A program made the translations under genes and the position numbers. Below, piece after piece: positions 2 to 51,880 of a DNA stretch of 59,376 nt. This stretch comes from Minisyncoccota bacterium (GTDB taxonomy: Bacteria > Patescibacteriota > Minisyncoccia > Phycocordibacterales > UBA918). Below the pieces are notes generated by a model that worked only from the letters and a program-made list of their open reading frames with translations, had not been told where the DNA came from and ran no database searches. Where the stretch lies: the NCBI GenBank assembly GCA_041389005.1, contig JAWKSR010000005.1:1-59376 (forward strand), read 5' to 3'. How positions within the stretch are numbered: position 1 is the stretch's first letter; each line of letters opens with the position of its first letter.

Positions 2-928
2 TACTTCTTTGAGAGTGAAGCTGCTCCTTTAGGTAAGGAGTTGGTTGAACAACATCCAGAAGTTTTTTCTCTCAGTGACGGAGCTTGGGTTTTTAAGGGT
101 GAGGAACATGGTCTTCATACTCGTGTCTTTCTCAATTCAGAGGGTTTGCCAACGTATGAAGCTAAGGAATTGGCGCTCGCGAAAATGAAAGACGACCGGT
201 TTGGGGGGTATGACCATTCAGTAGTTTCTACCGCCAATGAGATTACCGAATACTTCAAAGTGTTGTTGTGTGCGATGGGTTTTATCTATCCAGAGCTAGC
301 TAAGAAAACTGAACACATTGGACATGGCACGGTACGCTTATCTTCTGGAAAGATGTCCTCACGCACCGGCGATGTGATTGCCGCGCTTGATTTTATACAG
401 GAGATTACTGAGGCTGCAGCTTCGCGCATTGCTTCGTCCTCGCCAGAATTAGCTAAGGACCAGGAATTAGCAGAAGCCATTGCGCTTGGAGCTATCAAAT
501 ACGCCACACTCAAAGGAAATATTCTACAGGATAGTGTTTTCAATAAAGAAGAAGCTTTATCATTTGAGGGTGCTTCTGGTCCATACCTGCAGTACACTCA
601 CGCTCGACTCACTTCCGTAATAGAAAAAGCTAAAACAGCAGGGGTGACAATGGGTAGTGGAGTGCCGGATGTGCCATATCAGGTAGAGCGTATTCTCTAT
701 CGTTTTGAAGAAGCGGTAGCAGAAGCGGCACGGACTCGCGCACCACATCTCATCACCCAGTACCTCACCGAATTGGCGGGTACCTTTAACACCTTCTACG
801 CTGCAGAGAAAATCGCTGACCAGGCTGATCGGTATGCACCGTACAAACTTGCGCTGGCGGAGGCGACCAAGCAGACCCTTAAAAATGGTTTGTGGCTTCT
901 GGGCATCAAAGCGCCTGAACGGATGTAG
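2..928 (+). CDS. argS: arginine--tRNA ligase, C-terminal part (5' end lies outside the window)
   Basis: The frame is open to the window edge. SSGKMSSRTGDV is a KMSKS-type loop, followed by a DALR-type anticodon-binding domain ending GIKAPERM. Confidence 0.9.
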   Translation, partial: YFFESEAAPLGKELVEQHPEVFSLSDGAWVFKGEEHGLHTRVFLNSEGLPTYEAKELALAKMKDDRFGGYDHSVVSTANEITEYFKVLLCAMGFIYPELAKKTEHIGHGTVRLSSGKMSSRTGDVIAALDFIQEITEAAASRIASSSPELAKDQELAEAIALGAIKYATLKGNILQDSVFNKEEALSFEGASGPYLQYTHARLTSVIEKAKTAGVTMGSGVPDVPYQVERILYRFEEAVAEAARTRAPHLITQYLTELAGTFNTFYAAEKIADQADRYAPYKLALAEATKQTLKNGLWLLGIKAPERM

Positions 929-1273: not shown

Positions 1274-4200
1274 ATGAATAAAGAAACTCAAGAGAAGAGC
1301 GACGTTGCGTTGCGCGAAGAGGAAGTGTTAGCGTTTTGGCGTGAGCATGACATTTTTAAGAAGAGTGTAGAACAGGAAGCCCCGCAGGGGGATTTTGTAT
1401 TTTATGATGGACCGCCATTTGCAACTGGTCTGCCACACTACGGACATATTTTAGCGAGTACTATTAAAGATGCGGTACCGCGTTTCTGGACAATGAACGG
1501 CTATCGAGTACGTCGTACTTGGGGGTGGGACTGCCATGGCTTGCCACTGGAGAACCTGATTGAGAAAAAACTGGGGCTGGCAACCAAGCGTGATATTGAA
1601 GAGTACGGAGTAAAGAATTTCAACGAAGCCGCGCGCGGCGCAGTTTTAGAATTTGCCGATGATTGGAAGGAAATCATTCCTCGAATGGGTCGTTGGGCAG
1701 ATATGGAGAGTGACTACAAAACCATGGATAGTTCATACACCGAAAGTGTATGGTGGGTCTTTAAATCACTGCATGAGAAGGGGTTTGGTGTGTAAGGGGG
1801 CTTTAAGAGTATGCACCTTTGCCCTCGCTGTGGTACCACGCTATCTAACTTTGAGGTTAATCAAGGTTATCAAGACATCAAGGATATCGCAGTAACGGTG
1901 AAACTTCCTTTGCTTGATGAGGCAGGCGAACCAACCGACACATCACTGTTGGTCTGGACAACTACGCCGTGGACATTGCCAGGCAACATGGCAGCGGCGG
2001 TACATAAAGATGCAGATTATGTAACATTTACTGCCAAAGAGAACACCGGTGAACAGTACATCATGGCATTAGAAAACTGGAAAAAATTACCTGGTAATAC
2101 TGATGCTGTTAAAGTTTTAGATTCAGAAGAGTTTGAAATAGTCGCTACTATCAAAGGATCTGAACTGGTTGGTGGTGTGCCAGCCACCTTTTAACTATTG
2201 GCAAAAACAAGAGTTTGAGAACAAAAAAACGCCTGGAAAATCTACCATGCAGATTATGTAGAGATTGGAGAAAGAGGGCACTGGCGCTGTGCACCTAGCC
2301 CCTGCCTATGGTGAAGAAGGATATGGAGCTCGCTAAGGTAGAAGGCATTCCGATACAGCACCACGTTGATGCCGAGGGACATTTCATGGCGTTTGTGGAG
2401 GATTTTGCTCTACAACTCGTGAAGCCAAAGACGATATTGACTCTGGTGTGACGCATCTCGATGCTGATATTGAGGTTCTCAAGAAACTGCAAGAAAGAAG
2501 GAAAAATATTTAAAAAAGAAAACATCACTCACAGCTACCCGCACTGTTGGCGGTGTGATACACCACTCCTTAACTACGCGACGACCAGTTGGTTTGTAGA
2601 AGTGACAAAAATAAAAGATGAACTGGTCAATGAAAACAATAAAGTCCACTGGGTACCAGATCATGTTGGCAAGAACCGGTTTGGTAAGTGGCAGAGGCGC
2701 TCGTGACTGGGCGGTATCGCGTCAGCGCTACTGGGGCGCACCCCTGCCAGTTTGGCGTAATCCAGAGACTAAGGAAGTAAAAGTATTTGGCTCACTCAAT
2801 GAATTGCAAGAACATGTGCCAAAGAGTGGCGGTAGTATTTCCTGATGCGCCACGGAGAGAGTGAGTAATGCTGCCGGTATAGTCCAAACAGATATCTCAG
2901 TTGCCAACCCACTGACTAAGCGAGGGCAAGAAGAGGTGATGAAAGCAATTGAAGAATTGCAAGGAAAAGGGAGCATAACCAAGATTATCGTTTCTCCGTT
3001 TCCAACGTACAAAAGAGACAGCCGCTATAGTTCAAAAGAACTCAATCTGTCAGACAAGTGGTTACATACGATGAGTCACTGACTGAGATTCAAGTGCCTG
3101 AGTTTGAGGTGAGAAGTAGGAGCCAAGTATCAAAGAATTTATCGGCAATGACCCCCGTTGGTTTGATAAAAAAAACTGATTCAGGTGAATCATTATTGGG
3201 CGGACGTCCGCCGGCGTGTTGAAGGAGACTTTTGCACCAGCTAGAAACTGAGTATCAAGGAGAAAATATCCTTATCGTATCGCACAATAGTCCACTGAGA
3301 ATGATGCAATTGGTCGAAAGTGGTGAGTCATTAGAGTATTTTGATCATGACGAAGACTTGGCCAATCGCTTCTTAAATCCAGAAGTGAGAGAGTTAACCT
3401 TTGCACCATACCCACATAACGATAACTACGAACTTGATTATCATCGACCATATATAGACAATATTGAACCTCTATGAAGACGGTGTAAAGCTGGAGCGAG
3501 TACCGGACGTCTTTGACTGTTGGTTTAGTGGTTCGATGCCGTATGGACAGCACCACTATCCATTTGCGATGGATAAAGAACATTTCTGTAAAGAGCATTT
3601 CCCAGCACAGTTTATTGCTGAAGGTCTTGATCAGACTCGGGGCTGGTTCTACTCGTTGATCGTGCTTGGCACAGCACTCTTTGGTAAAAGTCCTTACGAA
3701 AATGTAATTGTGAACGGTTTGGTCTTAGCTGAAGACGGTAAGAAGATGAGTAAGAAATTGCAGAATTACCCAGACCCGATGGAGCTTGCTGATCGTGTTG
3801 GAGCTGATTCTATGCGGTACTACATGCTCTCAGCCCCAATCATGCGCGCTGAAGACCTCAACTTCAGTGAGAAAGAAGTGCTCGAACTGCAACGAAAAAA
3901 TATCGGTCGCTTACACAACGTACTAGCGATGTATCAAATGTATGCGGACGGTGGAGTAGAATCACGTAGTGATTCTACTCACGTGCTCGACCAGTGGATT
4001 ATCTCGCGCTTGAATGAGCTTATCAACGAAGTAACAACCGGTTACCAAAACTACGAACTCGACAAAGCCAACCGACCAATCACTGACTTTATTGACGACC
4101 TTTCAGTTTGGTATCTACGCCGTAGCCGAGATCGACTTAAGGGTGAGGACGAGGCAGACAAACAGCTGGCTCTTGCCACACTTCGTTATGTCTTGAAGAC

Positions 4201-4765
4201 TGTGGCACAAGTGATGGCGCCGGCTATGCCGTTTTACGCTGAACACCTGTGGCAACGTGTAAAGATGGAGTCTGAGGCAGAAAGTGTTCACCTCTCACGC
4301 TGGGCTGTCGCTGGCGAGGTTAACGAGACGTTGCTGGCTGATATGAAACAAGCGCGAGAGGTGGTGAACCAAGCACTGCAAGCACGAGTAAAAGCAGATA
4401 TCAAAGTGCGTCAACCAATTGCCTCAGTCACTGGACCGGCTATACCCGATGCCGTAGTGCCAGTGGTACTCGAGGAGGTAAATGCTCAGTCGTATCAGGT
4501 AGGGGAAGGTGTATCTATCGACACCACACTCACGCCAAAACTGATCGAAGCAGGGTATGTGCGCGAGTTTATTCGTGGTATTCAGGAGATGCGTAAAGAA
4601 TGTGGCTTCAATCCGCAAGACAGCGTCAACTATCAGTACGATGCTACTGACGAAGTAGACCTCTTTATCAAACGCCACCAAGCTGAGATTGATAAAGCCA
4701 TAAACACTCGCTTACTGACGCCACCATGCCAACTGAAGGGGCGACTGGAACCTCACGAGTACTAA
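1274..4765 (+). pseudogene. ileS: isoleucine--tRNA ligase (type 2), frame-disrupted as assembled, with an embedded histidine-phosphatase domain
   Basis: ORF fragments 1274-1795, 1811-2194, 2461-2706, 2618-2845, 2861-3082, 3232-3477 and 3464-4765 are colinear with IleRS. Motifs seen: [69 protein letters not shown] and KMSKKL. By eye there are at least a dozen frame breaks between 1790 and 3480. The segment 3464-4765 is intact. Confidence 0.9.
2840..3430 (+). other. histidine phosphatase (PGAM-like) domain encoded inside ileS
   Basis: Reading across frames gives IFLMRHGE (RHG codons 2848-2856), NPLTKRGQEE, IVSPFQRTKETAAIV, DESLTEIQVPEFE, GES and ILIVSHNSPLRMM (His codon 3283-3285). These lie between the IleRS motifs APLPVW and DYHRPYID. 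Confidence 0.7.
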
Positions 4766-4815: not shown

Positions 4816-5385
4816 ATGGCATACGCGACCTACACAACCGAAGCAATCGTGTGCGGTCACAAAGATAGTTATACAAGTGACCGCTCCTTTCTCTTATTCA
4901 CTCTCGATGCGGGGATGGTGTGGGCGAGTGCTCGTAGTGTGCGTGAGGAAAGAAGTAAACAACGCTACGCTCTACAAGACTTCTCATGGGTCCGTGTGTC
5001 ACTCGTGAAAGGAAAAGCTGGTTGGAAAATTGGTAGTGTGAGTGCGTTGCGTAATTTCTACGCAGAAGCAAAGGAGCGTGAATTACGCGGCCAGGTGACG
5101 CGCATACTCAGATTGGTTCGACAGTTTGTGCACGGTGAGTCACCGCACCCTCATGTCTTTACCGATACCCGTGAAGTATTATCAGCATTAGTAGAGGAGT
5201 CCGTCACCTCAGCCGAGCTACTCGAAGTCTATACGCTCCGTCTCTTGCATCAACTTGGATATATTGCCCCGCATAATACATACGACACGTTACTCACCGA
5301 TGCTCATTGGACAATGAATCCAACACCTATTCCGTCAGCTGCAAAAAAGGCCATTGAACACGCATTTAGTGTAAGCCATCTTTAA
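4816..5385 (+). CDS. recO: DNA repair protein RecO-like
   Basis: 189 aa. The N-terminal OB-fold pattern (EAIVCGHKDSYTSDRSFLLFTLDAGMVWASARSVREERSK) resembles short RecO proteins. Confidence 0.5.
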   Translation: MAYATYTTEAIVCGHKDSYTSDRSFLLFTLDAGMVWASARSVREERSKQRYALQDFSWVRVSLVKGKAGWKIGSVSALRNFYAEAKERELRGQVTRILRLVRQFVHGESPHPHVFTDTREVLSALVEESVTSAELLEVYTLRLLHQLGYIAPHNTYDTLLTDAHWTMNPTPIPSAAKKAIEHAFSVSHL

Positions 5386-5587: not shown

Positions 5588-7588
5588 ATGCAAAAGGGGA
5601 AAGACCAAGACAGACTTGATGATTTACGAAAACGTCTCTACGACCGTAGTGGAACTGGGCGCTCACACGAGCGGGCTGAGTTAACTGACGAAAAAAAAGA
5701 CGTTCCAACGAAGTGGCATGAATCATCACATGTTACCTCCAACGGTGATGTGGCGTTTAATAAGACTACGGCAGAAACACCTGCTGAATCTCCGTCTCCA
5801 GTCCCGGAACCAGCCTTTGAGACAGTTACCGAACCATCACTATCAGACACTATGCCTAGAAAAAACAAACGACGCGCCTTCCGCTTCAAGCTACTCCTTG
5901 CCGGCATCTTTTTCTTTATTGTGGCGGTAGGGCTCTCGAGCCTCTTTATATTCTTCGGTGGCAACGCTATTTCTGGCGAGAATATTTCAGTCAATGTCAC
6001 GGGACCCTTCACGATTGGAGGGGGAGAGATATTACGTCTTCAGGTTGGTGTAACCAACCAAAATAGCGTACCGATCGAATCAGCGACACTCATTATGGAA
6101 TATCCGGCTGGCACCCAAGCTGCCGATCAGTCAGACCGCGAATTATTCGTGGAGCGTTTATCGCTCGAGACCATTGAGTCGGGTGAGACCGTCAATATCC
6201 CAATTCAGGCTAAGGTGTTCGGTGAAGAGAATGACGAACTTATAATCCGAGCCTCGGTTGAATATCGTGTTCGTGGTTCTAATGCTACCTTCTTCCGCGA
6301 AGCTGAACCGCTCACCATAAAAATAAGTTCTTCACCGGTAGTCCTTGATATTGATGCGGTGGAAAATTTGGCTTCCGGTCAAGAAACCGATATCACCGTA
6401 CGAGTAGTCTCTAACGCACCAACTGAGATTTCTGACATTCTGGTTAAGGCAGAGTATCCATCTGGTTTTGATTTTACCAGCGCGTCACCCAATCCTGTGG
6501 CTGGTCAGAATGTCTGGCTCATCGATTCACTAGCGCCCGAGGAGACTGCGGAAATAACCATCCGCGGCGCCATTGTCGGTAGTGAGACGGAGAGCTACGC
6601 CATGAATTTTTCCGTTGGGGTACCAAACGAGCGTGATCGCTATAGCTTAGCCTCGGTCTTTTCAACTGGTATAGCAGAGTTCTCAATCGAAGAACCGTTC
6701 TTGGATGTAGCGGTGACGGTCAATGATGTGACCAACAGCACAGCGGCAGTCAGTCCCAATGAAACGTCCAATGTCGCGGTGGTCATTACTAATACGTTGC
6801 AAAACACTATTTATGATGGGGTGGTTGAACTCAAGCTTTCCGGTAACGCGCTCTCTGACGATGAGGTAAAGGTCACCAATGGATACTACGACTCAAACAC
6901 CAAAACTATCACCTGGGATATCAGTTCTGCTTCAACACTCGAACGCTTGATTCCAGGTGATACCGAACGCTTCGGCTTCACCATCCGACCGCAAGCCGGC
7001 GTCTCGCGTACGCCGCAGATCAATCTTGATGCAGTAGTCCGCGCCCGGCGGGTATCAGAACGTAATGCGCAGGAAGAAATTGTCGGTACTATTCAGTCAG
7101 TTATTAAAGTCACGAGTGGTGTCGGACTCTTGGCTGAGACTGGTTATAACATCACCGTACTGAATGACACGGGACCGATTCCACCGGAGGTAGGAGAGAC
7201 AACCACCTACACCATCACCCAGGTGGTTGAGAATGGTAGCAACAGCATCTCGGATGTGGTAGTGACCGCTAATGTGCCATCGTACGTATCATGGGTCGGG
7301 CAGACAGCCGGTAATGGCACCTATGAGTACAATCCAACCACACGCGTTCTTACGTGGAACGTTGCTTCTCTAAATGCTGGCGCAATCGCCCAAGGTTCCT
7401 TCCAGGTGTCAATCTTGCCAAGTATCTCCCAGGTTGATAAAACACCTACATTGGTCAGTGACCTGCAGTTGAAAGCCAACGATGATTTCACCGGCGCAGT
7501 AATCCGCGCTGAGACCAACGCTGTTACCACTAAAATGCCGGAAGAAAACGGCTATGATCAGGACAACGGTACCGTTGTCGGAGGATAA
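5588..7588 (+). CDS. membrane-anchored protein with repeated beta-sandwich (CARDB/DUF11-like) domains
   Basis: Long intact ORF. I prefer the ATG at 5588 over the GTG at 5522. There is a basic/acidic N-terminus, one TM helix (LLLAGIFFFIVAVGLSSLFIFF) and 4-5 similar modules of about 100 aa. Confidence 0.6.
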   Translation: MQKGKDQDRLDDLRKRLYDRSGTGRSHERAELTDEKKDVPTKWHESSHVTSNGDVAFNKTTAETPAESPSPVPEPAFETVTEPSLSDTMPRKNKRRAFRFKLLLAGIFFFIVAVGLSSLFIFFGGNAISGENISVNVTGPFTIGGGEILRLQVGVTNQNSVPIESATLIMEYPAGTQAADQSDRELFVERLSLETIESGETVNIPIQAKVFGEENDELIIRASVEYRVRGSNATFFREAEPLTIKISSSPVVLDIDAVENLASGQETDITVRVVSNAPTEISDILVKAEYPSGFDFTSASPNPVAGQNVWLIDSLAPEETAEITIRGAIVGSETESYAMNFSVGVPNERDRYSLASVFSTGIAEFSIEEPFLDVAVTVNDVTNSTAAVSPNETSNVAVVITNTLQNTIYDGVVELKLSGNALSDDEVKVTNGYYDSNTKTITWDISSASTLERLIPGDTERFGFTIRPQAGVSRTPQINLDAVVRARRVSERNAQEEIVGTIQSVIKVTSGVGLLAETGYNITVLNDTGPIPPEVGETTTYTITQVVENGSNSISDVVVTANVPSYVSWVGQTAGNGTYEYNPTTRVLTWNVASLNAGAIAQGSFQVSILPSISQVDKTPTLVSDLQLKANDDFTGAVIRAETNAVTTKMPEENGYDQDNGTVVGG

Positions 7589-7590
7589 TC

Positions 7591-8985
7591 ATGACTGACA
7601 AAAAAGATGACAAGATGGAGAAAATAGTCGCACTGTGTAAGCGGCGTGGTTTTGTGTTTCAAGGAAGTGAGATTTATGGTGGCTTACGAGGTACATGGGA
7701 CATGGGTCCGCTTGGTGTAGCGCTTAACAACAATATCAAGCGCGAGTGGTGGAAGATGTTCGTAGAACAGCGTGAGGATATGTACGGTCTTGATGCCGCT
7801 ATTCTTATGAACGAAAAGGTCTGGGAGGCATCTGGACATACCGGTGCCGGTTTTTCTGATCCGGTGGCAATTTGTATGGCATGCGAAAAACGGCAACGAG
7901 CAGATCATGTACTGAAAGAGAATGGGAAAACTGGCGGTTTTGAGAGTAACTCGATTGAGCAGTTCAACGATAAATTCAAACACGGAAATATTATCTGCCC
8001 AAACTGTGGCAAAAGTTCGTGGAGTGAAGTAAAAAGCTTCAATCTCATGTTTGAAACTCAAGTTGGTGCTGAGGGCACAGCGAAGTCATATCTCCGCCCA
8101 GAAACCGCCCAGGGCATTTTTGTAAACTTCAAAAATGTAGTGGACTCCATGGCACCAAAAATGCCCTTTGGTATTGCTCAAATAGGAAAAGCTTTTCGCA
8201 ATGAGATAGCACCTCGAGAATGGCTCTTCCGTGTGCGTGAGTTTGAACAAATGGAGATCGAGTACTTTGTACGTGAAGATACGTGGGAAGCTGAGTTTGA
8301 AAAATTTCTCAGTATTATTCGTGCTTGGCACGAGCATCTTGGTCTTTCTAGTGAAAATGTGTGTGAGCACGAAGTGCCAGAGAATGACCTCGCCCACTAC
8401 AGCAAGCGCACTATAGACTTTGAATACAACTATCCTGGTAAGGGCTTTGATGAGCTTGCTGGTTTTGCCTACCGAACTGATCACGACCTTAAAGCACACC
8501 AAGAAGCTAGTGGAGTCTCAATGGAGTACATTGAAGCGGATGGTAGTCGCTTTATTCCACATGTCCTTGAACCTTCTTTTGGTGTCGGACGAGCGTTTAC
8601 AGCAGTATTGTGTGAAGCATATACCGAGGATGAAATGAGTGGGGACGTTCGTACCTATCTTAAACTACCAAAACACTTAGCACCGTACCGGGTAGCAGTC
8701 TCACCACTCTTAAAAAACAAACCACAACTGGTTGAGAAAGCCCGCGAAGTATTCACTATGCTTAAGAAAGAGTTTGGCAATGTTGCCTGGGATGACAATG
8801 GCAATGTCGGTAAGCGCTACCGCCGCCAAGATGAGATCGGTACTCCACATTGTGTGGTCATTGACTTCGATACCCTGGGTGAGGAAGATCCAGCGCACAA
8901 AGATACCGTCACCGTCCGCGATCGCGACACCGGGGAACAAGCCCGCGTGTCGCCGTCTCTGAACTTACTCCAATACCTTACATAA
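7591..8985 (+). CDS. glyQS: glycine--tRNA ligase (class II, alpha2 type)
   Basis: MEKIVALCKRRGFVFQGSEIYGGLRGTWDMGPLG, class II motifs and a C-terminal anticodon-binding domain. The ORF is intact. Confidence 0.93.
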   Translation: MTDKKDDKMEKIVALCKRRGFVFQGSEIYGGLRGTWDMGPLGVALNNNIKREWWKMFVEQREDMYGLDAAILMNEKVWEASGHTGAGFSDPVAICMACEKRQRADHVLKENGKTGGFESNSIEQFNDKFKHGNIICPNCGKSSWSEVKSFNLMFETQVGAEGTAKSYLRPETAQGIFVNFKNVVDSMAPKMPFGIAQIGKAFRNEIAPREWLFRVREFEQMEIEYFVREDTWEAEFEKFLSIIRAWHEHLGLSSENVCEHEVPENDLAHYSKRTIDFEYNYPGKGFDELAGFAYRTDHDLKAHQEASGVSMEYIEADGSRFIPHVLEPSFGVGRAFTAVLCEAYTEDEMSGDVRTYLKLPKHLAPYRVAVSPLLKNKPQLVEKAREVFTMLKKEFGNVAWDDNGNVGKRYRRQDEIGTPHCVVIDFDTLGEEDPAHKDTVTVRDRDTGEQARVSPSLNLLQYLT

Positions 8986-9266: not shown

Positions 9267-10712
9267 ATGTCTGACAAATCCGCGCGCTATATCACCACCA
9301 CCTTGCCGTATGTAAATGCCGAGCCGCACGTTGGTTTTGCGCTAGAAGCAGTACAAGCGGACACGCTGGCACGATACTGGCGACACGTTGCCGGATGTGA
9401 AGTATTTTTTAATACGGGTACGGATGAGCATGGACAAAAAATAGCGGATAAAGCCGATGAAGCAGGGAAAGATAGACAAGCCTATGTCGATCACTATGCG
9501 GCTGAGTTTGGCAAACTGAAAGAAGCCCTGAATCTTTCGTACGACAACTTTATCCGTACTACTGACCCACAGCACAAAGCCGCCGCGCAAGCCATCTGGC
9601 AACGTTGTGCTGAGAACGGCTACATCGACAAAAAGGTCTATAAAGGTCTCTACTGTGTGGGGGACGAGATGTTCTTGCGCGAGAGTGACCTGGTTGATGG
9701 CAGGTGTCCCAACCATCCTAATATTGATCCAATCGAGATTGAAGAAGAAAACTACTACTTCAAACTCTCTGAGTTTGAAGACTATCTGATTGAATATTTA
9801 AGCAACCCTGCTTCGGTAACACCCGAATGGCAACGCCAGTGGGCACTCGATTTTGTGAAAAGTGGTTTGGGTGACTTATCTATCTCTCGCCCTAGGAGTC
9901 GCGTGGATTGGGGTATTCCTGTGCCGGGTGATGATGAGCATGTTATGTACGTGTGGTTCGATGCCCTTACCAACTACATCTCTACACTTGGCTGGGAAGC
10001 AGATACCGATGGTAATTTTAAGAAGTTTTGGCAGGATGGACAGACGCTCCAGCTTGCTGGGAAAGATCAGGTACGATTCCAGTCCATCATTTGGCAGGCA
10101 ATGTTAAAGGCGGCTGACCTTCCAGCTACCGACACTGTTTTCTATCACGGCTTTATCACCAGTGGTGGACAAAAAATGAGTAAGAGTCTCGGCAATGTCA
10201 TTTCTCCATACGAAATGATAGAACGCTATGGCACTGATGCTACTCGCTACCTACTGCTTAGACATATCCACCCGACCGATGATTCAGACATCACCTGGGA
10301 GAAAATGGACGAATGGTACACTGCCAACCTAGTAAACGGTCTTGGCAATCTTACTGCCCGCATTATGAAGATGGCGGAGACTCATTTAAAGGGTCCGATT
10401 GAAAAACCACAAGTTGGTCAATTTGACGAAGCGTATCTTAAAGCTCTTGATGAATATAACTTCCAAGGCGCCTGTGATTTTGTGTGGCAGAAAGTAGGGG
10501 AGCTTGATGAGCGAATTACTGAGACCGAACCGTTCAAACTAGTCAAAGAAGATAAAGAAGCAGCCCAAGAGATAATCAAAGAACTCGTGCACGATCTCTA
10601 CCTTGTTGGACGGATGCTTTTCCCGCTTATGCCAGAAGCCAATGTCATTATCAAAGAAGCAGTCCTTGCCAACAAAAAACCAGAGAATTTGTTTACTCGG
10701 TTAGAGATTTAA
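9267..10712 (+). CDS. metG: methionine--tRNA ligase
   Basis: TTTLPYVNAEPHVGF (HIGH-type) and KMSKSLGN. Intact 481-aa ORF. Confidence 0.93.
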   Translation: MSDKSARYITTTLPYVNAEPHVGFALEAVQADTLARYWRHVAGCEVFFNTGTDEHGQKIADKADEAGKDRQAYVDHYAAEFGKLKEALNLSYDNFIRTTDPQHKAAAQAIWQRCAENGYIDKKVYKGLYCVGDEMFLRESDLVDGRCPNHPNIDPIEIEEENYYFKLSEFEDYLIEYLSNPASVTPEWQRQWALDFVKSGLGDLSISRPRSRVDWGIPVPGDDEHVMYVWFDALTNYISTLGWEADTDGNFKKFWQDGQTLQLAGKDQVRFQSIIWQAMLKAADLPATDTVFYHGFITSGGQKMSKSLGNVISPYEMIERYGTDATRYLLLRHIHPTDDSDITWEKMDEWYTANLVNGLGNLTARIMKMAETHLKGPIEKPQVGQFDEAYLKALDEYNFQGACDFVWQKVGELDERITETEPFKLVKEDKEAAQEIIKELVHDLYLVGRMLFPLMPEANVIIKEAVLANKKPENLFTRLEI

Positions 10713-28983: not shown

Positions 28984-29706
28984 GGCGCCTACGTATATGA
29001 GTTTAACCAACAAGCAATCGTAGCGGACTGAAGATCGCCTTGCGATTTTCTGCCGCATCTCGCGGTTTTGTTGGAAAACTTGCGAAATGCGTAGGTTTTT
29101 TGAAAAAACCTGGCGTTAGTGGCTGGTAACACAGCCAACGCGTCATGCATATCCTTTGAATCAAGTTGATGAAGGTCTGATTCCAGAAAGTCCTGTCTGT
29201 GTACTCGACATACACAGCGCCCGGGTAATACTTGTACACTCAAGCAGGTAAGTCTGTCGGGTAAAGATTATGTAGAAACACTACAGGGTCTTTTCGTCCC
29301 CGATGAACAAATGTTGTATATCAACAGATACAACAAAACCAACGTTCAAAAATTCTGTAGAGTTTTGAACATCACTCAAGTCAATGTACGGCGATTGTGC
29401 AGCATTTCCTTGCAGGAATGTAAGGGTGTATAGTGGATGCCTAGGTTTACAAGAGCGATGAAAGACGTGGAATGGCTGCGATAAGTTTCGGCGAGGTGCC
29501 AAGTAAACGCTTCGACCCGGAAATTTCTGAATACGAGGAAACCACTCCGTGTTCCGCACGGAACCTGTGTATGCAAGGGCGTACCTTGGGAAGTGAAACA
29601 TCTCAGTACCAAGAGGAAGAAAGCAATAGACGGAACTTTCTTTCTGGACGACACTGTCAAGACTTGTCTGGACGCCATTGTGTTCAGGAAGAAGGTTCTT
29701 GCGATT

Positions 29707-29744
<38 letters not shown>

Positions 29745-29965
29745 GTACGTGTTTACATGTACGGGGTTGTAGGACAGTAACAGCATTTAGTTGCGCGAAG
29801 TTACCAAGTATAGATATAGCAAAACGCTCTGCGACGACCCTAGTGGGTAATAGTCCCGTATGCGAAATGTCTGCTACCTGTGGTTACCGTTCCTGAAGTG
29901 GTTCGAGACATGAATAGCTCGAATGAATCTGCCGGCACTAACCGGTAAGGCTAAATATCTTGTAA

Positions 29966-29996
<31 letters not shown>

Positions 29997-30572
29997 AGGT
30001 GAAAAAGAACCCCGGGAGAGGGGAGCAAAATAGATCTGAAACCATACATCTACAGAGTCGGAGCCCTGCGGGGCGGCGGCGTGCCTATTGAAGAATGAGC
30101 GGCGAGTGTATCTTTGTCCTTTGTCTAAGGGTAACCCCCCGCAGGCACAGTGAAAGCGAGCGTTAATAGCGCGACTATAGGGCAGGGATACGACCCGAAG
30201 CGGGAAGAGCTTGCCATGAGCAGGGTGAAGCGGAGGTAATACTCCGTGGAGGCCCGAACCGGTTGGCCGTACAAACCATCGGATGACTTGTGGTAAGGAG
30301 TGAAAAGCTAATCGATTTCCGTAATAGCTGGTTCTCTCCGAAACAGCTTTAGGGTTGGCGTCGAGTGAAGCACTGAAGGTGGGGGGCACTGGAAGAGATA
30401 AATGTAGGAAACCTCGTTAACTTTCTATCAAACTCGAATACCAGTTGGTTATAGCTCTCAGCAGTTAGACTATGAGAGAAGCTCCATTGGTCAAAAGGGG
30501 AGCAGCCCAGATCGCCAGTTAAGGTCCCTAAATATATGCTCGGTGCATCTCGGAGGAGGTGAGGATTCTCAA

Positions 30573-30607
<35 letters not shown>

Positions 30608-30696
30608 TAAAATAGGCGTAACAGCTCACTGGTCGAGTCCTTGCGCCGAAGATGATCAGGGCTCAAGCATATTACCGAAACTGCGGATTCGTACAC

Positions 30697-30878
30697 TTCA
30701 TAAGGGATAGACATATTGGAATTTTTCCATGTCAGTGTTAGATTACTAAGCACAAAAGCAATGGTCACGGGACCGTAAAAGCTGTGCAGGATGGTGATAA
30801 TACTCGGATTTATCCGGATCTCTGACAACTGCCAAAGTAGTGGACTTTTTGTCCCACTTGCTTTGGCTCCCTTACTGA
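30697..30878 (+). other. ~180-nt insertion replacing the helix-45 loop of the 23S (IVS-like)
   Basis: The flanking helix strands TTCGTACAC (30688-96) and GTGTGCGAG (30879-87) correspond to the E. coli hairpin at about 1164-1185. The interior has no E. coli counterpart. Confidence 0.6.
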
Positions 30879-31410
30879 GTGTGCGAGTGGTAGGAGAGCG
30901 TTCGTAGTGCGATGAATGGAAGGGTAACCCGCCCTGGGCCGCTGCAAGTGAGAATGCCGGCACAAGTAACCTGGAACGGGTGAGACCCCCGTCCGCCGAA
31001 ATACCAAGGTTTCCTTCGCGATGGTGATCAGCGAAGGGTTAGTCGGTCCTAAAGGAGGAATCCCGAACGGGGGACCCGATGGAGAGCAGGTTAATATTCC
31101 TGCACACTGCTGCGTTTCGATGGAGGGACGGAGTGTTGTACCTACGGCATCTTATTGGATTGGTGCTGGAACTATGAGCGTCTTGCTTAGGCAAATCCGG
31201 TGGAAATAGCGCGAAGTAGAGTCTGAATGTGAGGGAGCTACGGCTGAGCAAATGTGGGAGCACACTTCCGAGAAAAACTTCTAAGGTTAAGCGTAGCGGT
31301 TCCGTACCTGAAACCGACACAGGTGGTAGGGTCAGAAGACCAAGGCGAACGAGTGAGAGGTCCTTAGGAACTCGGCAAAAAAGCGGCCGTAACTTCGGGA
31401 TAAGGCCTGC

Positions 31411-31748
31411 CCAATACACCACTTTGTCCTCAACTAACCCAGAAGAGGTACAAGTGGAAGCAGCAGCACAAGCTTTTAGAACTGTAAAAACAACAAGCAC
31501 TCTTTCCATTTCTGGAAGTGTTGGTGGCAGCTCAGTCACCAAATTTGTGTTTGAAAGCGGTGAAGAAGCAACCATTGAAATTAGCGATTTACGAGACGCA
31601 ATCAAAAGGGACGATGTTAAATCGCCGTATTCGGTCTTACGTTGTCTGTAGACAATTCGTTCAGGACGAAAGGTCTGTAGAAGCTCTGGGCATCTTAAAT
31701 TTTAGCCACAATCGTTCTTTGCGGATTGAGGCTAAAGTGGTATATTGG
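31411..31748 (+). other. ~340-nt stem-closed insertion at helix 63 of the 23S
   Basis: CCAATACACCACTTT (31411-25) pairs with AAAGTGGTATATTGG (31734-48). It lies between GGGATAAGGC and GACTGTTTAAC, where E. coli has a hairpin of about 45 nt. Confidence 0.6.
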
Positions 31749-31940
31749 AGCCGCAGCGAAAGATTTCCTGGCGACTGTTTAACAAAAACACAGCTCCCTG
31801 CGAACTCGTAAGAGGATGTATAGGGGGTGACGCCTGACCAATGCCGGAAGGTTAAGCACGGATGGTGTAATGACTTTTAGTTGTTATGCTGGGCTGTGTA
31901 AGCCCCGGTCAATGTCAGCGATAACTATAATCGTTCTGAG

Positions 31941-32183
31941 TACAGCACATGTGCATGCACGTGGGTTGTACGGACTGGAACGATTATATGAGTCTAAAGA
32001 CTCATTGTTAAATAGCCCGAGCCATAGTTACCTTCTCAGCTAGAAATAAGTTAGAGATAGTCCACCTAGCCAACAAGGAGACCAAATGCTAGGCACCTTC
32101 ACTTCAGATTCTGAAAAGGTGAAAGTGGAATATCCCTATTATTGCACGCATCTACTAAGGCAGATGCCGTGAAGAAAAAATAG
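31941..32183 (+). mobile_element. ORF-less group I-type intron in the 23S just 3' of helix 69 (boundaries +/- a few nt)
   Basis: It interrupts CTGAG | TAGGCGTATTTCCTTGTC, equivalent to E. coli CCUAAG|GUAGCGAAAUUCC at about 1929-1931. It contains an S-element-like AGAGATAGTCC (32053-62), a P7 pairing GGACT/AGTCC and a P8-like hairpin GAGTCT-AA-AGACTC. Confidence 0.6.
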
Positions 32184-32826
32184 GCGTATTTCCTTGTCCG
32201 GGCAGATTCCGACGTGCACGAATGGCGTAACGACTGGGAAACTGTCTCAAGGACCTGCTCGGTGAAAATACAATAGGGGTAAAGATGCCCCTTACCTGCA
32301 ATTAGACGAAAAGACCCCAGGAGCTTTACTGTAGCTTCGTATTGGGGCTGTTGAGTATGTGCGTAGTATAGTGGGGAGACTTTGAAGCGTACCTTTCGGG
32401 GGACGTGGAGTCGTCAGTGAAATACCCATCTCATTTTTGGCAGTCTCTAACCTGGTAGGAAAAACCTATTAGGGACATTGCGTGGCAGGCAGTTTTAGTG
32501 GGGCGCTACCCTCCCAAAGAGTAACGGAGGGGTCTCAAGGTCAACTAGGCGCGAATGGAAACCGTGCCGATAGTGCAATGGCAAAAGTTGGCTTGACTGC
32601 AAGGCGTAGATGCCAAGCAGACACGAAAGTGGAGCATAGTGAACCGATGGTACGCTTTAGATGCGGCCGGAGATTACCCGATAAAAGTTACCCTGGGGAT
32701 AACAGGCTAGTCGTGCCCAAGCGTCCAAAGCGACGGCACGGTTCGGCACCTCGATGTCGGCTCGACTTATCCTGGGGCTGGAGCAGGTCCCAAGGGTTTG
32801 GCTGTTCGCCAATTAAAAAGTCACGC

Positions 32827-32860
<34 letters not shown>

Positions 32861-32907
32861 CTCCTATCTACTGCAGGCGTCGATACTTGACGAGATTTGT
32901 CCCTAGT

Positions 32908-33683
32908 AAGAAATTGCTACTTCAGGGTGAGAACCCTGATGACAATACGGCTTATAACGGTGAAGTCTACGTCACTCCCGGTTTTAGAGGGTGGTACACC
33001 ATGGTCCATTGTGTACCAAACTCGCTTGAGGACCGGAAAAGTGATATGATAATACCGTGGGAAGTCGACTCAACACAGATTTAGCATACATTGCAGGTTT
33101 CCTTGATGGAGACGGAAGCATTATGTTGCAAGTAAAGAAGCGTAGCGACACCAGTCGCGGCGTTCGCTTTATGGCGGCTATATGCCTCTATCAAGATACT
33201 GCTCGCAAAACCACTAGGTGGGCTCGTGAAGTCTTAGGTATTGGTTATTATCGCACCGCAAGGACGGTATAACTGAGCTGAGGATCAATGGTTTTGCTTC
33301 GGTAAGAAAAGTGCTTTTAAAGCTCGCTCCGTATATCAAGTTTAAACAAGCTCAAGTAGTAGCCCTACATAAGGCTTGTGAAATACTTGAAAATACAACC
33401 ATGAGTAAGCTTAGCGAAGCACAATTACGTACGTTAGTTGATTTGGTTTTTACAATCAAAGAACACAACTACAAAAGTACTCAAACACTTACCAAAGACA
33501 TATTGCTACTGCGTTTGGGTTTGACCCCGTAACGACTTGCACTGAAAGATGTGCGGACTCATGGGTAGAGGAATCATTTCAAAGAAAATGACTGCTCCCA
33601 TGGGTAAGATGCCGTCATCCTCACTGGTGTCCGCCAGACGGATGAAGATATAGTCTGTGCTCCTGGAAACAGGGGAATACACG
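32908..33683 (+). mobile_element. group I intron carrying a LAGLIDADG ORF, inserted in the sarcin-ricin loop region of the 23S
   Basis: The exons read ...GTCCCTAGT | ACGAGAGGACCGGG. The 5' exon ends in T and the intron ends in G. The S element AAGATATAGTC is at 33645-33655. P7 is CGGACT/AGTCTG, and a P8-like hairpin is CATGGG...CCCATG. Confidence 0.7.
33057..33532 (+). pseudogene. LAGLIDADG homing endonuclease (single-motif, I-CreI-like), one frameshift as assembled
   Basis: LAYIAGFLDGDGSIMLQVKK... in ORF 33057-33272. It continues as SHRKDGITELRINGFASVRKVLLKLAPYIKFKQAQVV... in the frame of ORF 33311-33532. Confidence 0.75.
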
Positions 33684-33762
33684 ACGAGAGGACCGGGATG
33701 AACTGACCTCTGGTCTAAGAGCTGTCGCGCCAGCGGCATCGCTCTGTAGCTATGTTGGGAAT

Positions 33763-33795
<33 letters not shown>

Positions 33796-34302
33796 AACTT
33801 GAAGATTAGGTATCATTAAGTCTCCTGAGAGATTATCAGGTTGATAGGCACTAGGTGGAAGTGTGGTAACACATGCAGCCGAGGTGTACTAATAAGACGT
33901 AATTCTTGCAAGGAATACTGTACACGGCTAAACATTCAAAATGAGCGCATTTGCACTCGCTTCGGATTTGTCGCTTGTCACCTTACGATGAAGTAAGGCT
34001 CCAGCGCACCAAATCCTCCAGCCAGCACAACTGCATCACATTTTGAAATGTTTGCTAAAAATACAATTTAATTTGAGTAAGAGTCGTATGCTTCATTAGG
34101 ACGGAGTGCGTTATTGATACGTTTGGGTCTTTCCCTGCTGGTCGCCCATGATGCCATTAATAGGCGGGTCAAGAAGTGAAAACCAGAGCTCCGTCCGTGT
34201 TCTTACAACATGGACATGGCGAACCCTCACCGTTATGAGTTCGCCGTTCTAATGAAGTATTCGACTACAAAAAGGATATGCAAAGTTTAAAGAGCTTTTA
34301 AA

Positions 34303-34412
34303 GTTGGTGGGTCAGCGAGTGGGGTACACCCGTTCTCATTCCGAACACGGCAGTTAAGCCGCTTCGCGCCGATGGTACTTCTTTCTTAGAGGGAGAGTAG
34401 GTCACCGCCAAC
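34303..34412 (+). rRNA. rrf: 5S ribosomal RNA
   Basis: GTTGGTGG...CCCGTTCTCATTCCGAACACGGCAGTTAAGC...GCGCCGATGGTACT...GGGAGAGTAGGTCACCGCCAAC. Confidence 0.9.
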
Positions 34413-34949
34413 TTTAAGGGCTTTTTATTTTACTCTACACAATAAGGATTACTTTACTTTTTATAAAAAAATTGTATTATACAGAAAGAATGCATAGAGA
34501 GACTGGTGAACTCTCGGGCTAGTACATTGTGCGGCTGCTCCCGTCTCCCCGCAGGGGTGAGAGCCATGTTATAGAGAAGGTTTGAAGCCTCACTCGACAT
34601 GCCGTGGGTGTCAGTGCACGCACGGGTTGGAGGAACGATATCACAGGTTGTGGCAAAAATTTACTTTAGAGTTTAAGAACATATGACTTAAGCATGTGTT
34701 CTAAACAAAATTCACACGACAGTGATGTCCGGAATCTGACTGGATTTCTTCGGTCACGCTAGCGGGAGAGGATAGAGCTGCTTACTCTAGACCTCTCCAC
34801 TCACCACAAACTACTGCCCAACTGGGCAGTTTCGTAAGAAAAGCTAGCCTAGCTCGTCTTATAAGGCAGAATAGCCGGCTGATGATTGTATACAAGTCTT
34901 GCGCACAATCATTAGCTATGTTCCCACCGCAATCAGAGAAGGAAAACAA

Positions 34950-50422: not shown

Positions 50423-51880
<1,458 letters not shown>

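What the first reader, a model, noticed from the sequence alone, without database searches (positions are those of the whole stretch)
2840..3430. Histidine-phosphatase (PGAM-type) domain encoded in line inside isoleucyl-tRNA synthetase
**Position.** About 590 nt lie between the IleRS motifs [10 protein letters not shown]...[13 protein letters not shown] and DYHRPYIDNI...RVPDVFDCWFSGSMPYG.

**Phosphatase signature, in order.**
- IFLMRHGE, the catalytic RHG.
- NPLTKRGQEE.
- IVSPFQRTKETAAIV.
- DESLTEIQ.
- GES.
- ILIVSHNSPLRMM, containing the second catalytic His.

**Strand and context.** The domain is on the same strand as ileS. Other type-2 IleRS proteins have only a short Zn-binding or connective segment at this point. 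There is no intein signature.

**Novelty.** I do not know of an aaRS with a phosphatase inserted here. If real, it suggests a coupled activity, for example on a nucleotide or aminoacyl-adenylate-related substrate or on a regulatory phosphoprotein.

**Caveat.** The region is riddled with frame breaks. I cannot exclude a stand-alone phosphatase gene sitting between two halves of a split ileS.
Basis: partly seen in the sequence, partly recalled or inferred. Interest (0 to 1): 0.65.

Follow-up and report, generated by a model that had tools for sequence, protein, structure and literature searches.

The report
Phosphatase domain nested inside IleRS
The isoleucyl-tRNA synthetase gene of this candidate-phyla-radiation bacterium really does carry a complete, apparently active histidine-phosphatase domain spliced in frame into its catalytic core; the same arrangement is found in hundreds of related species and I found no paper describing it, while the frame breaks seen here are assembly errors.

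Summary
Confirmed. ileS (1274-4765, +) is one gene for a type-2 IleRS. About 200 codons (about 2825-3435) encode a PhoE-like histidine phosphatase (Pfam His_Phos_1, E 1e-30) nested in a surface loop that is 8 residues long in yeast IleRS.

It is not a split gene, a chimera or an intein. At least 578 species genomes of Paceibacteria/Parcubacteria encode a relative of the insert-spanning query. The 80 retrieved all align through the insert, and about 60 read as one open frame of 1150-1240 codons. The catalytic set (RHG Arg-His, Asn, Arg, Glu, second His) is invariant in 75 inserts. AlphaFold models are confident (pLDDT 92-93).

The roughly 17 frame breaks cluster at 1783-3469. Ten coincide with indels in near-identical short-read contigs from wastewater and sludge metagenomes, so they are assembly errors. 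The six breaks inside the insert could not be checked.

The pattern is wider. Some CPR IleRS carry the domain at other sites or twice. ValRS of Gracilibacteria/Peregrinibacteria carries 1-4 copies, mostly at the homologous loop. GNAT, P-loop and IS200-transposase domains also occur nested.

The substrate is unknown. Eight literature searches found no description. The closest precedent is the CAAD insertion in cyanobacterial class I synthetases.

The parts
1274..4765 (+). ileS, one gene: a type-2 (eukaryote-like) isoleucyl-tRNA synthetase with a nested phosphatase domain. It is broken in this assembly by about 17 indels.
   Evidence: The read-through translation (1170 aa) scores 840 bits on TIGR00392 ileS, cut-off 621. 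Best solved relatives are yeast/Candida IleRS and Priestia IleRS2. Synteny argS-ileS-recO matches L001 and L002.
1274..2824 (+). IleRS N-terminal part: first half of the Rossmann fold (HYGH), the CP1 editing domain (TTTPWT, GTGAVHLAPAYG), the start of the second half ([10 protein letters not shown]) and the beta-hairpin/helix [11 protein letters not shown].
   Evidence: Frameshift-aware alignment to L032, L025 and L011. Pfam tRNA-synt_1.
2825..3435 (+). Nested histidine-phosphatase (His_Phos_1, PhoE-like) domain with its two conserved junction linkers (KSG(N).Y... and ...P.PHN..YEL). RHG is at 2848-2856, the second Arg at 3006-3008, the Glu at 3085-3087 and the second His at 3283-3285.
   Evidence: Pfam E 1.1e-30. 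In 75 aligned inserts, R9 H10 N16 R61 E88 H152 are invariant. Profile hits in the PDB are PspA 4ij5 (2.6e-29) and PhoE 1ebb/1h2e. AlphaFold pLDDT is 97-98 over the domain. Foldseek best hit is PhoE 1h2e, TM 0.68. The insert replaces the 8 residues between 490 and 499 of yeast IleRS.
3436..4765 (+). IleRS C-terminal part: DYHRPYID, DCWF(E)SGSMPY, GLDQTRGWF, KMSKK (3743-3757), the anticodon-binding domain and the C-terminal DUF5915-type domain.
   Evidence: ORF 3464-4765 is intact. Pfam Anticodon_1 and DUF5915 are found in the orthologue L025. Short-read contigs restore a GAG codon after 3526.
1783..3469 (.). Cluster of about 17 single- or two-base indels (assembly errors) that break the reading frame. 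Positions: about 1783/1788, 2180, 2226, 2273, 2319, 2431, 2493, 2695, 2834, 2866, 2999, 3054, 3124, 3177, 3221, 3469.
   Evidence: Positions come from protein-guided alignment. Matching indels are seen in independent short-read contigs at 1783, 1788, 2173/2174, 2222, 2271, 2317, 2426, 2494, 2833 and 3468/3469. The break at 2695 and the six inside the insert (2866-3221) have no matching indel listed; 2866-3221 is not covered by any run.

Best explanation
**What it is (shown).** ileS of this Paceibacteria-type (candidate phyla radiation) bacterium encodes a single bifunctional polypeptide.
- It is a complete type-2 IleRS: the HIGH motif, the CP1 editing domain, KMSK, and the anticodon-binding and C-terminal domains are all present.
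- An autonomous histidine-phosphatase domain of about 195 residues, PhoE/PspA/CobC-like, is nested in the distal loop of the small Zn-knuckle/connective segment. That segment lies between the strand ...RYWGxPxPxW and the helix DxWFESGS in the second half of the Rossmann fold.
- The arrangement is inherited and clade-wide.
- The frame breaks in this window are indel errors of the assembly, not biology.

**How it works (inferred).**
- The synthetase charges tRNA-Ile as usual.
- The nested domain hydrolyses a phosphomonoester through a phospho-histidine intermediate on the RHG histidine. The two Arg and the Asn hold the phosphate, and the Glu acts as general acid.
- I consider it most likely an independent small-molecule (metabolite or nucleotide) phosphatase lodged in a permissive loop, so that it is made 1:1 with an essential enzyme.
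- A direct coupling to aminoacylation is the main alternative. Which substrate it acts on is not shown.
For: **The domain is real.**
- The Pfam and NCBIfam scores pass their thresholds.
- Both AlphaFold models are confident: pLDDT 92.3 with pTM 0.84 for the N-terminal 744 aa of P0018, and pLDDT 92.7 for the insert.
- Foldseek's best hit for the insert is PhoE 1h2e; for the body it is type-2 IleRS.

**It is in frame and inherited.**
- At least 578 GTDB species genomes encode a relative of the insert-spanning query; the 80 loci retrieved all align across the whole query, insert included.
- About 60 uninterrupted ORFs of 1150-1240 codons were recovered.
- 91 clusters at 50% identity match the insert query at E<=1e-30, and most top hits are 1130-1275 aa with the insert at residues about 500-750.

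**Selection acts on catalysis.**
- R, H, N, R, E and H are invariant in 75 inserts, although the insert is only 39% identical on average against 59% for the synthetase body.
- The host motifs are kept: HYGH in 55/60, TTTPWT in 58/60, KMSK in 50/60.

**The breaks are errors.**
- Short-read contigs about 99% identical to the window carry indels exactly at 10 of the 17 predicted break points. They also add the missing GAG of DCWFESGS.

**The loop is permissive.**
- GNAT, AAA_18 and IS200-transposase domains are nested in neighbouring loops of related IleRS.
- NCBIfam already has an 'ileS_w_GNAT' model.
- CAAD inserts in cyanobacterial class I synthetases leave catalysis nearly unchanged (PMC4893482).
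- The insert is acidic, median pI 5.6. Its nearest solved relatives are small-molecule phosphatases.
Against: - No biochemical data exist, so activity and substrate are inferred from conserved residues and fold only.
- The six frame breaks inside the insert of this particular window could not be checked against reads.
- Three observations speak for a functional link with class Ia synthetases rather than a mere hitch-hiker: recurrence of the same kind of domain at the homologous loop of ValRS in other CPR classes, tandem copies (up to 4), and conserved junction motifs together with a high pTM.
- I did not verify that this is the only ileS in any complete genome.
Confidence: 0.8

Rival explanations
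1. The phosphatase is functionally coupled to class Ia aminoacylation. It would act on something the synthetase binds or makes, for example a 2'/3'-phosphate on the tRNA acceptor end (end healing before charging), AMP or another nucleotide product, or a phosphorylated amino-acid precursor. It would therefore be held at a fixed place on the enzyme.
For: - Domains of the same family sit at the homologous WG..P.W / D.WF.S loop of ValRS in Gracilibacteria/Peregrinibacteria: 69 of 85 domains, with 1-3 copies per protein and four in P0247.
- They also occur at two other sites of IleRS.
- The ValRS inserts score no closer to the IleRS-insert profile than stand-alone proteins do, which suggests separate captures.
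- The junction motifs are conserved (KSGN, PxPHNxxYELD) and the two-domain model has pTM 0.84.
- One relative adds a P-loop kinase-like domain (P0249), a pairing reminiscent of kinase/phosphatase end-healing enzymes.
- A Nomurabacteria ValRS lacks the insert while Nomurabacteria IleRS has it, as if one carrier per cell suffices.
Against: - The domain is acidic (median pI 5.6, net charge -6), which is not what an RNA-binding module usually looks like.
- Histidine phosphatases act on monoesters, so Ile-AMP and PPi are poor candidates (established chemistry of the family).
- Its nearest relatives are metabolite phosphatases.
- Unrelated enzymes also nest in these loops.
- The geometry relative to the active sites could not be measured here.
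Confidence: 0.3
2. The domain is a protein phosphatase (like SixA, PGAM5 or Sts-1). It would remove an inhibitory phosphate from IleRS itself or from a partner, for example as protection against a kinase toxin that targets class I synthetases.
For: - The superfamily contains protein phosphatases (established knowledge).
- There is a weak NCBIfam similarity to SixA, 30-37 bits against a cut-off of 74.5.
- HipA-type kinases are known to phosphorylate class I synthetases GltX and TrpS (my own knowledge, not tested here).
Against: - The best matches are PhoE/PspA/CobC, not SixA.
- No kinase gene was seen next to ileS in the window, L001 or L002.
- No evidence of phosphorylation is available.
Confidence: 0.07
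3. In this particular organism ileS is a decaying pseudogene, the frame breaks are real, and another ileS copy does the work.
For: - The breaks are concentrated in ileS while nearly all other genes of the 59-kb contig are intact.
- A second long-read genome (L002) shows the same kind of cluster: 9 shifts at 5771-7262 with intact neighbours.
- KMSKK stands in place of KMSKS, and a Glu codon is missing in DCWFESGS.
Against: - All defects are indels with no accumulation of in-frame stops, and amino-acid identity to orthologues stays high between the breaks.
- Contigs from independent short-read runs, about 99% identical, have the corrected length at 10 of 17 break points and restore the Glu codon.
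- The C-terminal 433 codons are intact.
- IleRS is essential, and duplicate aaRS genes are uncommon in genomes this small (inference).
Confidence: 0.04
4. A stand-alone phosphatase gene lies between two halves of a split ileS, or the segment is an assembly chimera or an intein.
For: Only the broken frames of this window, which hide the continuity.
Against: - Continuous ORFs run through both junctions in about 60 genomes and in short-read fragments P0001-P0004.
- No start or stop codons delimit the domain in those.
- The same junction is found in hundreds of species.
- The Rossmann fold continues across the insert in the model.
- No Hint domain or intein junction residues are present.
Confidence: 0.01

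Closest known systems
CAAD domain inserted in cyanobacterial class I aminoacyl-tRNA synthetases (ValRS, IleRS, LeuRS, GluRS, ArgRS, MetRS, CysRS; Olmedo-Verd et al. 2011; PMC4893482)
   Same: - A foreign domain with stand-alone homologues is nested in frame inside monomeric class I synthetases.
- It was captured recurrently, at more than one site and in more than one synthetase.
- It is restricted to one phylum.
- The host enzyme stays active.
   Different: [quoted passage not shown]
- The domain here is a soluble enzyme with a full catalytic set, lying inside the Rossmann-fold connective segment.
- It is fixed across a whole class (Paceibacteria) rather than scattered.
- It occurs in tandem copies in some ValRS.
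IleRS with an N-acetyltransferase domain (NCBIfam NF040702 'ileS_w_GNAT')
   Same: An IleRS carrying a second enzyme domain, recognised by NCBI as a distinct architecture. A GNAT is also seen nested together with the phosphatase in relative P0162.
   Different: - It has a different added enzyme.
- The window protein scores 284 bits against a cut-off of 1999, so it is not a member.
- No NCBIfam model appeared for a phosphatase-bearing IleRS.
PhoE (Bacillus stearothermophilus YhfR, 1h2e/1ebb), PspA phosphoserine phosphatase (4ij5) and CobC alpha-ribazole phosphatase (6nru, 6e4b): small bacterial branch-1 histidine phosphatases
   Same: Same fold, size (about 200 aa) and catalytic residues, at almost the same numbering as PhoE (R9 H10 N16 R61 E88 H152). 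Identity is 22-29% and TM about 0.67-0.69.
   Different: - Those are stand-alone enzymes; this one is nested.
- It falls below every NCBIfam equivalog cut-off: CobC 80 against 163, PspA 57 against 350, archaeal dPGM 70 against 225.
- The residue after the second His is variable (N/A/D/G) instead of the usual Gly.
Type-2 (eukaryote-like, mupirocin-resistant-type) IleRS: yeast/Candida cytoplasmic IleRS (8wnd, 7d5c, 6ldk), Priestia megaterium IleRS2 (8c8u), Thermus thermophilus IleRS (1ile)
   Same: Same domain order and motifs. E is 1e-191 to 1e-207, and Foldseek's top hits agree.
   Different: Those have 8 residues (yeast 491-498) where this family has about 205.
6-phosphofructo-2-kinase/fructose-2,6-bisphosphatase and other natural fusions of a histidine phosphatase to a second enzyme
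   Same: A branch-1 histidine phosphatase fused to another catalytic domain in one chain. Relative P0249 even adds a P-loop domain.
   Different: Those are end-to-end fusions with a known shared metabolite. Here the domain is nested inside the partner's fold, and no shared substrate is known.

Membership tests
Histidine phosphatase superfamily, branch 1 (Pfam PF00300 His_Phos_1) | Score above the Pfam gathering threshold | tested here: met
   The window read-through scores 107.3 bits against 21.7. Orthologues L025 and L008 score 98-103 bits.
Histidine phosphatase superfamily, branch 1 (Pfam PF00300 His_Phos_1) | Catalytic core: RHG (Arg plus the nucleophilic His) at the end of strand 1, a second Arg, a Glu general acid and a second His | tested here: met
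   In the window: RHG at 2848-2856, R at 3006-3008, E at 3085-3087, H at 3283-3285. R9 H10 N16 R61 E88 H152 are invariant in 75 orthologous inserts.
Histidine phosphatase superfamily, branch 1 (Pfam PF00300 His_Phos_1) | Alpha/beta fold of the PGAM/PhoE type | tested here: met
   The AlphaFold model of P0006 has pLDDT 92.7. Foldseek gives PhoE 1h2e at E 8.6e-12, TM 0.68, rmsd 2.8 A over 177 columns.
Histidine phosphatase superfamily, branch 1 (Pfam PF00300 His_Phos_1) | Phosphomonoesterase or mutase activity through a phospho-histidine intermediate | not testable with these tools
   This needs an enzyme assay of a purified protein and its RHG His-to-Ala mutant.
Cofactor-dependent phosphoglycerate mutase proper (dPGM; 'PGAM-type' in the narrow sense) | Score above the NCBIfam equivalog cut-offs for dPGM/GpmA/GpmB | tested here: not met
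   dPGM_arch 66-70 bits against 225, GpmB 51-56 against 261, PRK01295 30 against 316. It is a histidine phosphatase but not demonstrably a mutase.
CobC alpha-ribazole phosphatase / PspA phosphoserine phosphatase | Score above the equivalog cut-off | tested here: not met
   CobC TIGR03162 75-80 bits against 162.9, PspA 52-57 against 350, PRK13463 52-57 against 277.
Isoleucyl-tRNA synthetase (NCBIfam TIGR00392 ileS, equivalog) | Score above the equivalog cut-off over both halves | tested here: met
   The window read-through scores 840.3 bits against 621.4. Orthologue L025 scores 880.4.
Isoleucyl-tRNA synthetase (NCBIfam TIGR00392 ileS, equivalog) | Class I signature motifs HIGH and KMSKS, and the CP1 editing motifs | tested here: met
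   The window has PHYGH, TTTPWT, GTGAVHLAPAYG and KMSKK, with the last Ser replaced. In 60 orthologues: HYGH 55, TTTPWT 58, KMSK 50.
Isoleucyl-tRNA synthetase (NCBIfam TIGR00392 ileS, equivalog) | Type 2 (eukaryote-like) rather than type 1 | tested here: met
   Type-2 structures (yeast, Candida, Priestia IleRS2, Thermus) give E 1e-191 to 1e-207. Type-1 structures (S. aureus 1ffy, Priestia IleRS1) give about 1e-88.
Isoleucyl-tRNA synthetase (NCBIfam TIGR00392 ileS, equivalog) | Charges tRNA-Ile, and is the only IleRS of the cell | not tested
Intein | Hint fold, a Cys/Ser at the first residue, and a terminal His-Asn followed by Cys/Ser/Thr | tested here: not met
   No Hint family appears in the Pfam scans and the fold is His_Phos. 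The N-junction KSGNxY has no conserved nucleophile at a fixed boundary. The C-junction PHN is followed by D/R/K/E.
CAAD-bearing aminoacyl-tRNA synthetase | Inserted CURT1-like domain with two transmembrane helices | tested here: not met
   The insert is a soluble alpha/beta enzyme domain. It resembles CAAD only in the mode of nesting.
IleRS with GNAT domain (NF040702) | Score above the model's cut-off | tested here: not met
   284.5 bits against 1999.

The most novel reading that the evidence does not exclude
The nested phosphatase is not a passenger but part of a so far undescribed kind of bifunctional class Ia synthetase. Candidate-phyla-radiation bacteria would have repeatedly recruited a PhoE-like phosphatase to the same loop of IleRS (Paceibacteria) or ValRS (Gracilibacteria/Peregrinibacteria), sometimes in 2-4 copies, because it processes a phosphorylated substrate linked to charging. 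Candidates are a tRNA acceptor end bearing a 2'/3'-phosphate, a nucleotide product, or a phosphorylated amino-acid precursor. Translation in these minimal cells would then depend on it.
Probability: 0.3. Interest if true: 0.8.

Novelty: new variant of a known kind. Interest (0 to 1): 0.6.

Why it matters
**For the field.** Added domains on aminoacyl-tRNA synthetases are a classic route to new functions, but they are rare in bacteria and almost never catalytic.
- Here an apparently active phosphatase sits inside the catalytic core of an essential enzyme across a whole bacterial class.
- Related arrangements occur in ValRS of other CPR lineages.
- If the two activities are linked, this would reveal an unknown step in tRNA charging or nucleotide handling in ultra-small symbiotic bacteria.
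- If they are not linked, it is a striking natural example of a permissive loop in a class Ia synthetase that tolerates 200 to about 600 extra residues. That is useful for protein engineering and as a phylogenetic marker for Paceibacteria.

**For annotation.**
- Gene callers split such genes in noisy long-read MAGs.
- Some fragments are mis-named 'histidine phosphatase family protein'.

Tried and rejected
- **Split gene or stand-alone phosphatase.** Rejected, because orthologues read through both junctions.
- **Intein.** Rejected: no Hint domain and the wrong junction residues.
- **Assembly chimera.** Rejected: the same junction is seen in all 80 retrieved loci of at least 578 related species genomes.
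- **True phosphoglycerate mutase, CobC or PspA orthologue.** Rejected: all scores fall below the equivalog cut-offs.
- **Correcting the insert from reads.** Failed. No indexed public run holds 2866-3400. At 80% likeness nothing covers 2886-3381. Only the flanks could be corrected.
- **Neighbourhoods of stand-alone relatives.** P0012 sits divergently next to a tilS-like gene and P0016 next to ABC transporters, with no consistent link to ileS.
- **RNA-binding hint from charge.** The insert is acidic.
- **Rfam search for an intron in the over-long 23S rRNA.** Nothing was found.
- **Eight literature searches.** These combined IleRS or ValRS, histidine phosphatase or phosphoglycerate mutase, CPR/Patescibacteria/Parcubacteria/Gracilibacteria, and the Pfam names. 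None returned a description. Subscription-only papers were not searchable.
Full report
**1. The observation**

The window is a whole 59,376-bp contig with CPR/Patescibacteria hallmarks. Its 23S+5S genes (29410-34413) and its 16S gene (50423-51880) are unlinked, and the 23S is 3485 nt against a 2925-nt model.

ileS lies at 1274-4765 on the + strand. It sits between the 3' end of argS (41-928) and a recO-like gene (4816-5385).

A read-through translation of about 2700-3560 scores Pfam His_Phos_1 at 107 bits (E 1.1e-30), flanked by tRNA-synt_1. The complete read-through protein (1170 aa, X at each break) passes the NCBIfam ileS equivalog, 840 bits against 621.

**2. In line, not split**

A first homology search returned fragments carrying both PF00133 and PF00300. 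Four of them (P0001-P0004) read through both junctions in one frame.

The 80 best all cover the whole query, insert included. They are named Kaiser-, Nomura-, Wolfe-, Taylor-, Yonath-, Lloyd- and Vogelbacteria, or Paceibacterota.

In about 60 of these the gene is one uninterrupted ORF of 1150-1240 codons. The rest are cut by contig ends. A full scan of 1.84 billion cluster representatives with an insert-rich query gave 91 hits at E<=1e-30. Most top hits are 1130-1275 aa with the insert at residues about 500-750.

This rules out a stand-alone gene between two ileS halves, and it rules out an assembly chimera. No Hint domain or intein junction residues are present.

**3. Where it sits**

The host is a type-2 (eukaryote-like) IleRS. 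Yeast, Candida, Priestia IleRS2 and Thermus structures match at E 1e-191 to 1e-207, against about 1e-88 for type-1 enzymes.

The alignment to yeast IleRS stops at residue 490 (...GSIKELEE) and resumes at 499 (DLHRDVID...). About 205 residues therefore replace an 8-residue loop.

Some orthologues keep CxxC before the insert and CxC after it (P0003, P0004, P0036), which is the Zn knuckle known from Thermus IleRS. The window has lost these cysteines.

In window coordinates the added segment is about 2825-3435. RHG is at 2848-2856, the second Arg at 3006-3008, the Glu at 3085-3087 and the second His at 3283-3285.

**4. What the domain is**

In an alignment of 75 orthologous inserts, R9, H10, N16, G35, S57, R61, E88, R130, L148 and H152 are invariant. 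This includes the whole catalytic set of branch-1 histidine phosphatases, at nearly the numbering of PhoE.

A profile of the inserts hits the following solved structures:
- PspA phosphoserine phosphatase 4ij5, E 2.6e-29
- PhoE 1ebb/1h2e, about 2e-27
- CobC 6nru, 5.7e-22

An AlphaFold model of the insert has pLDDT 92.7. Its best Foldseek match is PhoE 1h2e, with TM 0.68, rmsd 2.8 A and 28% identity.

A model of the N-terminal 744 residues of an orthologue (P0018) has pLDDT 92.3 and pTM 0.84, with 97-98 over the insert. Its best structural matches are type-2 IleRS.

The domain falls below every NCBIfam equivalog cut-off, including CobC, PspA, GpmB and archaeal dPGM. It is a histidine phosphatase of the small PhoE-like kind, but 'PGAM-type' in the sense of a mutase is not supported.

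The insert evolves faster than the synthetase body: 39% mean pairwise identity against 59%. Its catalytic residues never change, and the host keeps HYGH, TTTPWT and KMSK.

**5. The frame breaks**

A frameshift-aware protein-to-DNA alignment against three orthologues places 15 shifts between 2180 and 3469, plus a pair near 1783/1788. No genuine break was found from 3470 to the stop; the aligner's one or two shifts at about 4664-4718 lie in the divergent C-terminal tail. Almost all other genes of the contig are intact.

Public wastewater and activated-sludge metagenomes hold near-identical sequence. Their short-read contigs are 0-3 mismatches per several hundred bases from the window. They differ from it by indels exactly at 1783, 1788, 2173/2174, 2222, 2271, 2317, 2426, 2494, 2833 and 3468/3469. 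Each has the sign needed to restore the frame. They also add GAG after 3526, which restores the conserved Glu of DCWFESGS.

With the changes at 2831-2833 the junction reads KSGNQYFLMRHG, which is the family consensus.

Ten of the 17 breaks are therefore assembly indels. The break at 2695 has no matching indel listed. The six breaks inside the insert (2866-3221) cannot be checked, because no indexed run holds that stretch.

Contigs approaching from both sides run into unlike sequence at 2865 and 3408. The insert is thus much more variable between co-occurring strains than the flanks. This probably explains why long-read consensus fails here. A second long-read genome (L002) shows the same local cluster, 9 shifts with intact neighbours. 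A true pseudogene is unlikely.

**6. A wider pattern**

Some hits have other architectures:
- P0221 is an IleRS with the phosphatase between the catalytic and anticodon-binding domains.
- P0210 is an IleRS with two copies, at two further sites.
- P0255, P0212, P0248 and P0241 carry two copies.
- P0249 adds an AAA_18 P-loop domain after SGSMPYA.
- P0162 carries an IS200-type Y1 transposase domain, the phosphatase and a GNAT.
- P0247 is a ValRS with four copies. The three complete copies keep RHG, Arg, Glu and His; the fourth is cut off by the end of the sequence.

Searching with P0247 showed that phosphatase-bearing ValRS (1040-1626 aa) is common in Gracilibacteria and Peregrinibacteria. A Nomurabacteria ValRS lacks the domain.

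Of 85 phosphatase domains in these ValRS, 69 lie between WGHRIP and DTWFSS, the loop homologous to the IleRS site. They score no closer to the IleRS-insert profile than stand-alone proteins do (57-117 bits against 92-114). This suggests separate captures.

**7. How it most likely works**

*Shown:* one polypeptide, a complete IleRS, and a nested domain with an intact and strictly conserved catalytic set and a confident fold.

*Inferred:* the domain hydrolyses a phosphomonoester through a phospho-His intermediate.

I rank an autonomous small-molecule phosphatase in a permissive loop first. The reasons are:
- The domain is acidic, with median pI 5.6.
- Its nearest relatives act on metabolites.
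- Unrelated enzymes nest in the same proteins.
- The CAAD precedent shows such inserts need not touch catalysis (PMC4893482).

Coupling to charging is the serious rival (about 0.3). It is supported by recurrence at the homologous loop of two paralogous synthetases, by tandem copies, and by conserved junction motifs with a high pTM. A regulatory protein phosphatase is a distant third.

**8. Comparison with what is known, and novelty**

The closest known cases are:
- CAAD-bearing cyanobacterial class I synthetases, for the mode of nesting and its recurrence.
- NCBIfam's 'ileS_w_GNAT'.
- PhoE/PspA/CobC, for the domain itself.
- Type-2 IleRS, for the host.

The proteins are in public databases. 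They are mostly named 'isoleucine--tRNA ligase' or 'class I tRNA ligase family protein', and sometimes 'histidine phosphatase family protein, partial'. Eight full-text searches found no description.

I rate it a new variant of a known kind, namely a synthetase with a nested accessory domain. Interest is moderate to high. The main open question is the substrate.

Noticed in passing
window 29410-34413 and 50423-51880: The rRNA genes are unlinked: 23S-5S, then 16S about 16 kb further on the same strand. The 23S is about 560 nt longer than the bacterial model. No Rfam intron family matched, so the extra sequence is unexplained. Insertions in CPR rRNA genes are described in PMC11270868, which I did not read.
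   Followed up: partly
window 2865 and 3408 (edges of the phosphatase insert): Short-read contigs from several wastewater and sludge runs are 94-99% identical to the IleRS flanks. They run into completely unlike sequence exactly at the two edges of the insert. The nested domain is therefore far more variable between co-occurring strains than the synthetase body, through either fast divergence or cassette-like exchange.
   Followed up: partly
L002 5771-7262 (733-kb contig of another long-read MAG): Its ileS carries 9 frameshifts clustered in and after the phosphatase insert, while argS, recO and the other neighbours are intact. This is the same local error pattern as in the window.
   Followed up: partly
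window 3743-3757 and 3526: The KMSKS motif reads KMSKK. The conserved Glu codon of DCWFESGS is missing in the window but present (+GAG) in near-identical short-read contigs.
   Followed up: partly
relatives P0247 and P0272-P0390 (ValRS of Gracilibacteria/Peregrinibacteria): ValRS of other CPR classes carries 1-4 histidine-phosphatase domains. 69 of 85 lie at the loop homologous to the IleRS site, and the rest mostly before the RDWCISRQ motif. A Nomurabacteria ValRS has none.
   Followed up: partly
relatives P0162, P0249, P0210, P0221 (IleRS): Other nested domains occur in CPR IleRS: an IS200-type Y1 transposase domain inside CP1, a GNAT or an AAA_18 P-loop domain after SGSMPYA, and phosphatase copies at two further sites. 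The genomic context of these proteins could not be looked up.
   Followed up: no
window 41-928, 1274-4765, 7591-8985, 9267-10712: Four aminoacyl-tRNA synthetase genes lie within 11 kb: argS, ileS, a class II enzyme with an HGTP anticodon domain, and metG. recO and a 688-aa DUF11 surface-type protein sit between them. metG has no insert.
   Followed up: partly
L083 4032-5543: The closest stand-alone relative of the insert found (P0012, 180 aa) is divergently adjacent to a tilS-like gene (tRNA-Ile lysidine synthase family, PF01171) followed by ftsH. This may be coincidence.
   Followed up: no
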